Below the pieces are notes generated by a model that did not search any database, was not told the origin of the DNA, and worked only from the letters and a program-made list of their open reading frames with translations. A stretch of 48,269 nt of DNA from a virus (lineage: Duplodnaviria > Caudoviricetes). The stretch is from the IMG/VR virus record IMGVR_UViG_3300005323_000056, positions 1-48,269 of that record; one strand, given 5' to 3'. The translations under genes were made by a program, and so were the position numbers. Numbering within the stretch: position 1 is the stretch's first letter; the number at the start of each line of letters is the position of its first letter. Of the stretch, positions 36,300-40,848 are shown one piece after another.

Positions 36300-36735
36300 G
36301 CCCGTGGTCATGGCCATACCATGCCATGAATCATGACATAAATAAATAACAATAGCATGATGCCCTATAGATAAATATCATGGCCATGACATAGCACAAT
36401 CTGATCTGGATCTATCATGCAACATCTGCCTGGAGCTCCTTGGATACATCCATGCCTTGATCATTCATGTATCATGATGTATATAGATATCCACATCATG
36501 AGTTCATATGACCATGACATGTAATATTGAATATGACATGATATGATATTGATAATGATGATATATCATAATAGATATGCTTAGATATGATTATAAATAT
36601 CACGTCATATCATATCCTGGATAAATAGACATCACATAGAATAATAGATATATCATTAATCATAATCATGATACATGAGAACATGAGATATCAATAGATA
36701 TATATAGATATAATATATATATAGATAGATATCAA
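36300..36735. repeat. CATG/ATAT-rich non-coding block between the divergent arms
   Basis: About 18 CATG counted by hand in 36309-36686; no ORF of 60 aa or more. Confidence 0.8.
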
Positions 36736-36783
36736 GGAAATCAGGAGAATTATGAACAATTTATGAACATTTAATAAAATGGC

Positions 36784-36811
36784 TTGACTACTTATGAATA
36801 CATGATATTAT
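36784..36811 (+). promoter_or_regulatory. sigmaA-like early promoter
   Basis: TTGACT-N16-TATTAT with TGn extended -10. Confidence 0.7.
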
Positions 36812-37166: not shown

Positions 37167-37216
37167 GCCCGAAACGCCGCAAGGCGTCTGACCGTTATGC
37201 GGTCACTGATGAGGGC
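37167..37216 (+). ncRNA. Hammerhead ribozyme (type II)
   Basis: gccc-GAAA-cgcc(gcaa)ggcg-UC-ugaccg(uuaug)cgguca-CUGAUGA-gggc; full catalytic core, three intact stems, GUC cleavage triplet ending at 37188. Confidence 0.92.
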
Positions 37217-37239
37217 AACAAATACAGGAGGGCAAAATC

Positions 37240-37464
37240 ATGAAAAAGCAATCATTCAATTTTTATCTGGTCAAAACTCAGTTTCACGGCGGCGGGTTGA
37301 TTAGCCGTCACGCAACGCTTGAAGCCGCAGAGAAGGCCGCTAAAAAATGGAGCGTGCCGGGCTGCACTTGTGGTTGTTGTGATGTTGTCACGCCGGCAGA
37401 ATATGAAAAGCTGCCAACTGTTCAGGCGTGCCGCTGGCCGGATATGCTCTGCCGGAAGGGATAA
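37240..37464 (+). CDS. Early hypothetical protein
   Basis: AGGAGG RBS; FHGGGLISRH.TLEAAEKA...CTCGCC. Confidence 0.7.
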   Translation: MKKQSFNFYLVKTQFHGGGLISRHATLEAAEKAAKKWSVPGCTCGCCDVVTPAEYEKLPTVQACRWPDMLCRKG

Positions 37465-37465
37465 G

Positions 37466-37496
37466 AAAAGGGAGCGGTTTGCTCCGCTCCTTTTTC
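37466..37496 (+). terminator. Intrinsic terminator within the early region
   Basis: ggagcgg-tttgct-ccgctcc followed by ttttt. Confidence 0.75.
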
Positions 37497-38220: not shown

Positions 38221-38388
38221 ATGAAAACATGTAAACATTGCGGATCTGAAATAATCAATGGCGTTAATGGAGCGTCATGCCTCGACAATTGTTTATCTTG
38301 CAATCCCGATCCGTATCCTTGCAAGCCGAGCAAGCTACAGGACAATAACGATTATGAATCACAAATAAATTATGATCTTGATTATTAG
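38221..38388 (+). CDS. Small Cys-rich early protein
   Basis: AAGGAG RBS; CKHCG...CLDNCLSC. Confidence 0.6.
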   Translation: MKTCKHCGSEIINGVNGASCLDNCLSCNPDPYPCKPSKLQDNNDYESQINYDLDY

Positions 38389-38475
38389 TCATTAGTCTGT
38401 ACGTCTATCTGCTGTCATTTCATCATGATAGCAGTCAAGGCTTGACAGCCTAATAATATCATGGAGGATAAAATC

Positions 38476-38730
38476 ATGTTACGCAAAGAGTATTTTTCAG
38501 TCAATGGGCAAGATTATCCGGTTTATTGTTTCGGTAACGATTTTAACGGCAATCCGCGCTATATAGTCCATTATTTAGATATTGGACTTGCGGATCACGT
38601 AGCATCCGAAAAGACGCGGGCTGCCGGCTTGCGCTTGTTTCACGGCAGAGCTTTTGGCGGCGGCTTTACTTTTACATCATATGATGTAAAAAGCGAATTG
38701 GCGTTTATCCTGAAAAAATTATCTGAATGA
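38476..38730 (+). CDS. Early phage protein
   Basis: NDFNGNPRYIVHY...FHGRAFGGGFTFTSY motif. Confidence 0.7.
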   Translation: MLRKEYFSVNGQDYPVYCFGNDFNGNPRYIVHYLDIGLADHVASEKTRAAGLRLFHGRAFGGGFTFTSYDVKSELAFILKKLSE

Positions 38731-38742
38731 GAGGCGGATAAC

Positions 38743-39024
38743 ATGGAAAATAAACACGAATTAGATAATTTTCTTAATTATCTTGAAAAAATTGCATCCG
38801 CCGATAAAATTACGTATTCATATGCTTTCGGCAAGCGCTGGGTAAAGGTCGTCCGTCATTCAGGCGTTCAATATAGCGTATATGCTTTTATTGATCCTGA
38901 AAACGGCAATATTTATAAACCGGCATCCTGGCAGACGCCAGCTAAAACGGCAAGAGCAAATTTGTTTGATCCCGAATCATGGAAAACCGGCTGCGGCCGC
39001 TATTCAATGGCATATCTGAAATAA
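38743..39024 (+). CDS. Early phage protein
   Basis: GKRW.KV...SVYAFID..NG.IYKPASW..PAK.ARANL motif. Confidence 0.75.
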   Translation: MENKHELDNFLNYLEKIASADKITYSYAFGKRWVKVVRHSGVQYSVYAFIDPENGNIYKPASWQTPAKTARANLFDPESWKTGCGRYSMAYLK

Positions 39025-39080
39025 TCTATCATGCGGTTCCTGCCGGTTCATCCATAAAGCCGACAAGAAGGCGTATTATT

Positions 39081-39254
39081 ATGACTTACGATGAAATGAA
39101 GCTGAAATATCCCAACAAAGAAATAAAACTGGTTCCCGCTGAATCAGAATATTTATATTTGAATTGGGGGTTCAAAACAATCGACACGTGTAAAATGCCT
39201 GCAAACGGTCGTGTATATTATTATTGTTTCATGATTGATATGGCACAAAATTGA
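39081..39254 (+). CDS. Early hypothetical protein
   Basis: 57 aa; AGAAGG RBS. Confidence 0.5.
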   Translation: MTYDEMKLKYPNKEIKLVPAESEYLYLNWGFKTIDTCKMPANGRVYYYCFMIDMAQN

Positions 39255-39282: not shown

Positions 39283-39495
39283 ATGAGCAAAAAAGCAACT
39301 GTGGATGATTATTGGGATGAGTCATATGATCCGGATACTAGTGAAGAGCGGGTATGGAAATTTTTAGAGTGTTCGAGTTGTGAGCATCGCGTATCAATTA
39401 AAGACGTAATTTGCCGTCATTGTGGCGCAGAATTGGATTGGGAAAACTCGGAAATTGACAAAGAATATTGGGATGAACAAAGCGAAATGGACTAA
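39283..39495 (+). CDS. Acidic zinc-ribbon early protein
   Basis: CSSC...CRHCGAELDW; very D/E-rich. Confidence 0.65.
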   Translation: MSKKATVDDYWDESYDPDTSEERVWKFLECSSCEHRVSIKDVICRHCGAELDWENSEIDKEYWDEQSEMD

Positions 39496-39600
39496 AAACA
39501 TACAGCGTTTTTCAAGCGAAAAGCGAGGTGATGACATATGCTCCGGCACAAGTAATGCCGGATAATGCGAATAATATAATCAGGGGCGGTAACGTCTCCG

Positions 39601-39663
39601 CCCTGTAATGCAGCCAGGTTAGGTGACAAGCCCTATCAATGCAGAGTCATAATAATTATAGGG
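39601..39663 (+). ncRNA. Twister ribozyme
   Basis: cccugU^AAUGCAGC...P4 UAGG(UGACAAGC)CCUA...GCAGAGUCA...auaggg; loop UGAC pairs with GUCA (pseudoknot); P1 ccctgt/ataggg. Confidence 0.88.
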
Positions 39664-39674
39664 AAGGTGATATT

Positions 39675-39839
39675 GTGAAAATTGCGGTAACGACAAAAGA
39701 ACATGGTACATTTATTGTCAATGTTCATTCAGATGACATTTATCTGGCAATTTATGCGGCAAAATGGCACGTTGCCAATACTGAACACGTGCCGTATGCG
39801 GATATTGTATCCGTGAAACAAGTCAAGATGGGAGCGTGA
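39675..39839 (+). CDS. Early hypothetical protein
   Basis: GAAGGTGA RBS, GTG start right after the twister. Confidence 0.6.
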   Translation: MKIAVTTKEHGTFIVNVHSDDIYLAIYAAKWHVANTEHVPYADIVSVKQVKMGA

Positions 39840-40314: not shown

Positions 40315-40848
40315 ATGAAAACCAATAAATCTTATGTTGTTGAGAGTGATTTTGTTTACAAAAACTTTCGCTGTGTGTGCCTTGGTATGGATATGGGTCA
40401 TCGTTGCGGATACGTTGGTCTACCTGAGGGTCATTCCCTTTATGGTAAGGACTATAGGGACGCTTGTCTGCCTAAAAAAGACGTTGAGGATCAGCCTATT
40501 GGAAAACGCGGAATAATCCCCTTGCTTTGCTCAAAGTTTTCACAAGACTTAATTTCTCCAGATGTTTATTTTGACGTACATGGTAGCCTAACATATTCTG
40601 GTGGTGGCAAGGATAGTAAATATCCGGTTGAATCTGATTTGTGGTGGCTTGGCTTTGACTGTTGTCATTCTGGAGATGGACAGGACGAACAGTTAATCCT
40701 TTCTCTTTGTGAGACAGACCTCGCCGCTTCTCGTCTATCATGGTCGAGACGATCCAGTGATCCAGCAAGAACACAAGACTATGTAGAATCAGAGCTTAAA
40801 AGCTTGGTTGACCAGATTATAACCGTTTCCAAAGGAGGAAATGTATGA
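40315..40848 (+). CDS. Conserved phage protein of unknown function
   Basis: GHRCGYVGLP..H.LYG...DVHGSLTYS...WWLGFDC.H.GD motif. Confidence 0.8.
   Translation: MKTNKSYVVESDFVYKNFRCVCLGMDMGHRCGYVGLPEGHSLYGKDYRDACLPKKDVEDQPIGKRGIIPLLCSKFSQDLISPDVYFDVHGSLTYSGGGKDSKYPVESDLWWLGFDCCHSGDGQDEQLILSLCETDLAASRLSWSRRSSDPARTQDYVESELKSLVDQIITVSKGGNV

What the first reader, a model, noticed from the sequence alone, without database searches (positions are those of the whole stretch)
39601..39663. Twister ribozyme in the early region, directly upstream of an RBS
Seen: UAAUGCAGC, P4 UAGG/CCUA closing UGACAAGC, then GCAGAGUCA. Loop UGAC is complementary to GUCA, as the pseudoknot requires, and P1 ccctgt/ataggg ends at the RBS of ORF 39675. 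Two different self-cleaving classes within 2.5 kb suggest deliberate processing of the early polycistron (inference).
Basis: partly seen in the sequence, partly recalled or inferred. Interest (0 to 1): 0.75.

Follow-up and report, generated by a model that had tools for sequence, protein, structure and literature searches.

The report
Phage twister ribozyme with stunted P1
This is a real copy of a known self-cutting RNA, the twister ribozyme, sitting just before a small gene of a bacterial virus, where it likely cuts the early message and gives both pieces protected ends; it has almost lost one normally present stem, but this is an ordinary example of a known layout.

Summary
The twister core at 39606-39649 is real. 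The catalytic A and G, P2, P4 and both pseudoknots are intact; 0 of 1500 shuffled genomes give such a match. Rfam's best hit is twister-P1, at 26.2 bits against a cut-off of 67.2; 21 of 21 hits in relatives also miss that cut-off. The true P1 is at most 2 bp, with a P0 hairpin directly upstream; P1 is known to be dispensable (PMC5408937, PMC11662667). A related phage carries the same ~150-nt cassette between different genes, with 1 of 44 core bases changed against 20 of 106 flank positions. A type II hammerhead lies 2.4 kb upstream, but a terminator-like hairpin separates the two. Ribozymes between phage genes, and the polycistron-processing idea, are in print (PMC3088659, PMC6765202), and this scan found the layout before in other phages. 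Cleavage is untested. New member of a known kind; low interest. A test RNA must include P0, or it risks a false negative.

The parts
39606..39649 (+). Type-P1 twister catalytic core, short form without P3 or P5 (predicted cut between U39606 and A39607; general-acid A39607, general-base G39644)
   Evidence: Rfam twister-P1 26.2 bits; own model R1, 42.2 bits; 1 change in 44 nt in L150; residue roles from PMC5408937 passages
39609..39643 (+). P2 (39609-12 with 39640-43) enclosing T2 (39613-14 with 39630-31) and P4 (39620-23 with 39632-35)
   Evidence: sequence; alignment A1 pair counts
39625..39648 (+). Pseudoknot T1 (39625-27 with 39646-48)
   Evidence: fully paired in 115 of 118 family members across 7 triplet types; 2 of 3 pairs show changes on both sides
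39604..39651 (+). Vestigial P1, at most 2 bp (G39605.U39650, U39604-A39651), after an extra A39649
   Evidence: the one-base offset is the better register in 34 of 47 distinct relatives with the same T1
39583..39604 (+). P0 hairpin directly 5' of the cleavage site; takes up the 5' strand of P1
   Evidence: -13.9 kcal/mol, z -2.9; two compensatory pair changes in L150; similar hairpin in 90 of 118 family members vs 110 of 585 random sites
39601..39663 (+).
   Evidence: pair probability 0.92 in 39601-39663 alone, 0.33 / 0.011 / 0.024 in three constructs with P0; weak in L150
39661..39677 (+). Ribosome-binding site and GTG start of the downstream gene
   Evidence: RBS kept in L150 in front of a different gene
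39675..39839 (+). 54-aa ORF of unknown family
   Evidence: no PHROGs or Pfam hit; no relative in viral contigs
39525..39562 (+). Upstream part of the shared cassette: SD-like site, 5-codon mini-ORF (39538-39555) and an overlapping 7-bp hairpin (39542-39562)
   Evidence: SD-led mini-ORF; hairpin z -4.0; start, stop and hairpin kept in L150
37167..37224 (+). Type II hammerhead ribozyme upstream of the RBS of ORF 37240 (predicted cut after 37188)
   Evidence: Rfam 26.6 bits, cut-off 37; descriptor hit, 0 of 100 shuffles; three-way fold
37465..37496 (+). Intrinsic-terminator-like hairpin between the two ribozymes
   Evidence: -22 kcal/mol, z -4.9

Best explanation
39606-39649 is an intact type-P1 twister ribozyme core with a 2-bp P1 remnant and a P0 hairpin directly upstream; it likely cuts the phage early transcript in cis between U39606 and A39607, which would leave the upstream piece ending in the P0 hairpin and the downstream genes on a piece that starts with a 5'-OH inside the folded core, 68 nt before the GTG at 39675. 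Shown here: the core, its conservation, P0, the RBS, and that the cassette sits between different genes in two phages. From the literature: the chemistry, and that P1 is dispensable. Inferred: cleavage of this copy, and that the purpose is to set the ends and stability of early sub-messages. P0 is predicted to fold first and so to keep 39601-39604 from forming the 9-bp helix that would block the cut.
For: All core pairs and catalytic residues are present. Chance is excluded (0 of 1500 shuffles). A model built from 52 relatives without this copy scores it 42.2 bits, E 4e-11 (the relatives were found with a pattern taken from this copy, so this is partly circular). T1 was not constrained on its 3' side by the search, yet it is fully paired in 115 of 118 members. 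Related phage L150: 1 of 44 core bases differ against 20 of 106 flank positions (Fisher p 0.008, two sequences only), and P0 has compensatory changes. Family context: P0 in 90 of 118 vs 110 of 585 random sites; SD plus start within 70 nt in 82 of 115 vs 185 of 585; an SD-led ORF starts within 100 nt downstream in 60 of 104, vs 8 of 104 in the opposite-strand control, and only 1 of 104 lies inside an ORF. Literature: about 94% of natural twisters tested cleaved, and P1 flaws did not lower cleavage (PMC11662667, abstract and passages). P1-less twister cleaves at near wild-type rate (PMC5408937, passages). Clustered prophage hammerheads cut ~2-kb native transcripts in vitro (PMC3088659, passages).
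Against: No cleavage or RNA data for this copy. It scores below all 21 twister-P1 hits in 19 related loci (35.2-65.8 bits). It also lacks the small C-G pair that 48 of 51 aligned rows keep. Twisters with P0 cleaved less on average (0.40 vs 0.85; PMC11662667 section 33). PMC8501958 calls P1-less cleavage inefficient (passage). An engineered twister cutting a 5' UTR in E. coli changed neither mRNA nor protein level when the SD was free (PMC5052635, passages). A 5'-OH end can be an entry for RNase J1 (PMC3997798, passages). A terminator-like hairpin separates the hammerhead from the twister.
Confidence: 0.6

Rival explanations
1. The ribozyme cuts, but the cut starts decay: the 5'-OH product is an entry for RNase J1-type 5' exonuclease, as with glmS, so the cassette lowers or times expression of the downstream early genes.
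For: RNase J1 degrades glmS mRNA from its ribozyme-made 5'-OH (PMC3997798 passages). 16 of 20 cellular genomes holding this twister type are Ruminococcus, Oscillospiraceae or other clostridial names (placing them in Clostridia is recalled). The host of this phage is not determined.
Against: The cleaved twister's 5' end stays next to a double-pseudoknot core. The family keeps a strong RBS close behind (82 of 115), which fits a message meant to be translated. The 5' end of a major early transcript of haloarchaeal phages maps at a hammerhead site (PMC3088659).
Confidence: 0.17
2. This copy is a decayed or attenuated twister: it has lost P1 and a small capping pair, folds poorly next to P0, and no longer cuts at a useful rate.
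For: Lowest Rfam score among those compared. P1 of 2 bp or less in only 16 of 118 members. P0-bearing twisters cleave less. Competing folds are predicted around the core (pseudoknots not modelled).
Against: The core is more conserved than its flanks in L150, and the one change falls in the variable L2 loop. P4 carries a rare A-U pair in place of the usual C-G, so pairing was kept. P1 is dispensable in published tests.
Confidence: 0.15
3. One reading: it pairs the cleavage site with the region just before the RBS, so cleavage and translation initiation are coupled, as in engineered twister switches.
For: 9 bp, -11.2 kcal/mol; a helix this long over the cleavage site occurs in 2 of 118 members. 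Synthetic constructs with the SD in P1 exist (PMC5052635).
Against: Not kept in L150 (-4.0 kcal/mol, no compensatory change). Outcompeted by P0 (probability 0.33, 0.011, 0.024 in three constructs). Predicted SD accessibility is 0.54 both before and after the cut. A second RBS-covering hairpin (39647-39678, z -3.1) is also absent in L150 (z 0.26).
Confidence: 0.05
4. Hammerhead and twister together excise a 2418-nt piece with 5'-OH and cyclic-phosphate ends that is ligated into a circle.
For: The end chemistry fits; the possibility is raised in PMC3088659.
Against: The same paper detected neither spliced nor circular products. A terminator-like hairpin lies 280 nt after the hammerhead. In L150 the homologue of the hammerhead's downstream gene directly follows another gene's stop codon.
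Confidence: 0.03

Closest known systems
Type-P1 twister ribozyme (Rfam RF03160), short form without P3
   Same: Cleavage-site U-A-A, 4-bp P2, T2, P4 with its loop, T1, G-A before T1, same order of elements
   Different: P1 reduced to 2 bp or less; T1 triplet differs from the Rfam consensus; 26.2 bits against a cut-off of 67.2
P0-bearing natural twisters and P1-less twisters (PMC11662667; mini-twister in PMC5408937; Schistosoma T-variants in PMC8501958)
   Same: Hairpin directly 5' of the ribozyme; weak or missing P1
   Different: Here P0 takes up the 5' P1 strand, and this is kept in two phages. T-variants are tied to a retrotransposon, not to a phage gene junction. Whether this sequence or a close one was among those tested is unknown: that supplement could not be read.
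Self-cleaving ribozyme clusters flanking genes in prophages (hammerheads, PMC3088659; twister and hammerhead gene associations, RAGATH context, PMC6765202)
   Same: Intergenic, same strand as small early genes whose identity varies, a second ribozyme class nearby; 7 of 20 hand-picked related loci hold a second ribozyme hit
   Different: Only two ribozymes found in this genome, with a terminator-like hairpin between them

Membership tests
Twister, type P1 | Conserved A 3' of the scissile bond (U-A-A) and conserved G of G-A before T1 | tested here: met
   U39606 A39607 A39608; G39644 A39645; roles
Twister, type P1 | P2 stem of 4 bp | tested here: met
   39609-12/39640-43
Twister, type P1 | P4 stem with conserved loop L4 | tested here: met
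   4 bp, 39620-23/39632-35; 2 of 4 pairs show changes on both sides across the alignment
Twister, type P1 | Pseudoknot T1 (three Watson-Crick pairs) | tested here: met
   paired here; 115 of 118 members fully paired, 7 triplet types
Twister, type P1 | Pseudoknot T2 (two G-C pairs) | tested here: met
   39613-14/39630-31 complementary; invariant because fixed by my search pattern, so no covariation evidence
Twister, type P1 | P1 stem closing the termini (part of the consensus, dispensable for cleavage) | tested here: inconclusive
   only 2 bp possible, flagged unpaired by both models; PMC8501958 says P1 typically has at least two pairs; dispensable
Twister, type P1 | Rfam RF03160 gathering score of 67.2 bits (a curation threshold, not a structural feature) | tested here: not met
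   26.2 bits; 0 of 21 hits in 19 related loci reach it either
Twister, type P1 | Site-specific self-cleavage giving a cyclic phosphate and a 5'-OH | not testable with these tools
   needs a cleavage assay
Twister types P3 and P5 | Termini located in P3 or P5 (circular permutation) | tested here: not met
   element order is that of type P1; the L2 and P4-P2 linkers are continuous
Hammerhead type II (37167-37224) | Conserved core with stems I and III closed and stem II open | tested here: met
   Rfam alignment, descriptor hit, fold; score 26.6 is below the cut-off of 37

The most novel reading that the evidence does not exclude
The ~150-nt cassette (SD, 5-codon mini-ORF over a hairpin, P0, near-P1-less twister, RBS) is a portable punctuation module that moves between gene junctions of related phages; in it P0 has replaced P1 as the structural neighbour of the active site and guards it, and ribosome loading on the mini-ORF sets how the upstream piece is protected or when the cut happens, making it a translation-sensing natural mini-twister.
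Probability: 0.08. Interest if true: 0.55.

Novelty: new member of a known kind. Interest (0 to 1): 0.2.

Why it matters
The job of self-cleaving ribozymes between phage genes is still open (PMC6765202). This copy adds one more example but does not make the question easier to test: the phage is uncultured, its host is not determined, and no RNA data were listed. Three smaller points are useful. (1) A large phage twister subfamily (about 810 stored stretches estimated) seems to fall below Rfam's cut-off (0 of 21 hits tested reach it), so routine annotation would miss it. (2) P0 is far more common in this phage set (90 of 118) than in the published test set (about 10%), which fits a role in protecting the upstream piece's 3' end.

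Tried and rejected
Rfam at gathering score: 0 hits in the window. Rfam E-value scans of 38350-39100 and 39450-39720 gave no further ribozyme or RAGATH motif. An exact pattern with this copy's P4 found 0 viral contigs but 2 metagenome contigs. The upstream hairpin pattern found 0 viral contigs. The downstream 54-aa protein has no relative in viral contigs. Ten loci with relatives of the 177-aa gene at 40315 held no match to model R1 (0 of 10) and no Rfam ribozyme (0 of 7 scanned). Annotated phages gave only an 87-nt weak match. Sequencing runs: no RNA holder listed; this is no evidence either way. A type II hammerhead descriptor hit only 1 of 64 related loci, so the twister-hammerhead II pairing is not typical at 1.5 kb range. 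The nearness of twisters to upstream stop codons (66 of 104 within 150 nt) has no chance control, and I do not use it as support. Rows dropped: 9 of 127 pattern matches lacked the 3' half and were left out of counts; 10 of 63 short members with longer linkers were left out of alignments A1 and A2; flank-based counts use only loci with enough flank. The supplement of PMC11662667 could not be read; it may hold cleavage data for close relatives. The original twister and mini-twister papers were not read, only reviews citing them.

Full report
Setting. The window is a whole 48,269-base virus record, rated complete, with direct terminal repeats. It has terminase, portal and capsid genes on the minus strand, and Bet/RecT, Gam-like, resolvase and replication-initiation genes on the plus strand. 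From 36884 to about 41500 the plus strand carries small, mostly unknown genes. Calling them early genes is an inference from this layout. The finding lies in the gap between a 70-aa zinc-ribbon-like ORF (39283-39495) and a 54-aa ORF with a GTG start (39675-39839).

The observation. Rfam gives nothing at gathering score. In E-value mode twister-P1 matches 39602-39652 over the full model with 26.2 bits: E 0.19 for the genome, where it had the lowest E-value of 6 hits, 0.016 for 4.2 kb and 0.001 for 271 nt. The alignment shows every core element: U-A-A at 39606-08, a 4-bp P2, T2, P4 with its loop, G-A at 39644-45 and T1. A descriptor of this core finds one hit in the window and none with a 4-bp P2 in 1500 dinucleotide shuffles (1 of 1500 with 3 bp); it was written with the Rfam consensus and the window in view. 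A review of twister structures names the cleavage-site A and this G as the catalytic residues and gives T1 three Watson-Crick pairs (PMC5408937, passages).

The family. A pattern made of the 5' core and the P4 loop matched 138 loci in 10 of 64 parts of the viral collection, about 810 stretches by estimate. With the window this gave 127 distinct matches; 118 had the 3' half and 9 did not. The 3' side of T1 was not part of the pattern, yet it pairs fully in 115 of 118, in seven triplet types. On an alignment of 53 of the 63 short members (51 distinct), 97.3% of cells pair and 8 of 17 pairs change on both sides; 0 of 500 shuffles reach the covariation score, and slid partners pair 14-40% (the invariant columns were fixed by my pattern, and related sequences inflate the shuffle test). 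A model from the 52 relatives alone scores the window at 42.2 bits, E 4e-11, and finds nothing else in the genome; this is partly circular. Rfam scored 21 twister-P1 hits in 19 of 20 hand-picked loci at 35.2-65.8 bits, all below 67.2; the twentieth, L150, gave no hit at E 0.05. Missing the cut-off is thus normal in this sample, and the window's copy is at the low end. Seven of those 20 loci hold a second ribozyme hit (hatchet, pistol, hammerhead, twister). The same twister type occurs in 20 cellular genomes, 16 with Ruminococcus, Oscillospiraceae or other clostridial names. That hints at the host group but does not determine it.

In relatives, P1 starts at T1's end or one base later and is 3 bp or longer in 102 of 118. 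Among 47 distinct copies with this T1, the one-base offset is the better register in 34. In that register the window has two pairs only. Such a helix is incompatible with the active site. Just upstream lies a hairpin, 39583-39604 (-13.9 kcal/mol, z -2.9), which uses the same bases. With it present the 9-bp helix falls to 0.33, 0.011 and 0.024 in three constructs (ViennaRNA does not model pseudoknots). This hairpin is the known optional P0 element (PMC11662667 section 33). It is present in 90 of 118 members against 110 of 585 random sites.

A natural test. Two metagenome contigs carry this exact core type. L149 is nearly the same phage (1 mismatch in 3363). L150 is a related phage, 84% identical over neighbouring genes. 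It holds window 39526-39673 at 86.6% identity between a different upstream and a different downstream gene. Its core differs at 1 of 44 bases, in the variable L2 loop, against 20 of 106 flank positions (Fisher p 0.008). P0 is kept through two compensatory pair changes. The 2-bp P1 is the same. So the core, P0 and RBS appear to be under selection, and the long-range helix does not. This rests on two sequences.

Would it cut? P1-less twister cleaves at almost wild-type rate (PMC5408937, passages). In a test of natural twisters about 94% were active, and P1 flaws had no effect, while pseudoknot and catalytic-residue changes did (PMC11662667; abstract, passages, section 33 and part 2 of section 32). 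This copy has no flaw of the harmful kind. Against: P0-bearing twisters averaged 0.40 cleaved versus 0.85, PMC8501958 calls P1-less cleavage inefficient (passages), and a small C-G pair kept in 48 of 51 rows is missing here. I put activity at about 0.8.

What for? Family members are intergenic (1 of 104 inside an ORF) and point at a downstream gene (60 of 104 within 100 nt, against 8 in the opposite-strand control). A cut would leave the upstream piece ending two bases after the P0 hairpin, and the downstream piece starting with a 5'-OH in the folded core, 68 nt before the start codon. I infer end-setting and stabilisation of early sub-messages (0.6 overall). The opposite outcome, decay from the 5'-OH as for glmS (PMC3997798, passages), stays open (0.17). 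An engineered 5'-UTR twister had no effect in E. coli (PMC5052635, passages), a warning that cleavage need not change expression.

The second ribozyme. A type II hammerhead at 37167-37224 has a full core and sits before the RBS of ORF 37240. The two predicted cuts are 2418 nt apart. A strong terminator-like hairpin at 37465-37496 lies between them, so one shared polycistron is not established.

Against what is known. Clustered hammerheads flanking varying prophage genes, the processing idea, and in vitro cutting of such transcripts are in PMC3088659 (passages). The shared gene context of twister and hammerhead, near phage genes, with unknown purpose, is in PMC6765202 (passages). P0 and weak P1 are described. 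My literature searches were made; their listings showed no paper that settles the function in phages, but I read only passages of seven papers. Earlier notes of this scan report the same layout in other phages (unchecked AI notes) and nothing on this genome or look-alike stretches.

Verdict. Real, a new member of a known class in a known setting, with a mis-assigned P1. Interest 0.2.

Noticed in passing
window 39525-39562 +; L150 about 1549-1586 -: An SD-like site, a 5-codon mini-ORF (39538-39555) and an overlapping hairpin with a constant 7-nt loop are kept in both phages upstream of P0, though the upstream genes differ. No match in viral contigs or Rfam. Function unexplained.
   Followed up: partly
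window 38378-38462 +: Intergenic, strongly folded multi-hairpin RNA (-25 kcal/mol, z -3.9) ending just before an RBS; no Rfam ribozyme hit. It could be a third processing element.
   Followed up: partly
window 39020-39080 +: Short intergenic stretch with a possible hairpin before ORF 39081 (fold -11.5 kcal/mol); no Rfam hit.
   Followed up: no
window 36300-36780: Very AT-rich, repetitive non-coding stretch with long imperfect palindromes between the divergent gene blocks, followed by a promoter-like site at 36784-36811; candidate origin or control region.
   Followed up: no
window 37240-37464 vs L150 899-1105 -: The gene behind the hammerhead has a homologue in L150 at another position, downstream of the twister cassette and directly after another gene's stop codon: gene order in this region is shuffled.
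   Followed up: partly
window 39639-39675 +: An ATG inside the ribozyme's P2 strand is in frame with the downstream gene in both the window and L150; no SD found for it; probably incidental.
   Followed up: partly
L025 1423-2802: One related locus packs RAGATH-6, twister, RAGATH-7, RAGATH-7-assoc and hatchet hits in 1.4 kb.
   Followed up: no
L001, L051, L098, L130, L133, L137: Some matches stop right after the P4 loop and lack the 3' half of the twister, as if truncated copies occur.
   Followed up: no
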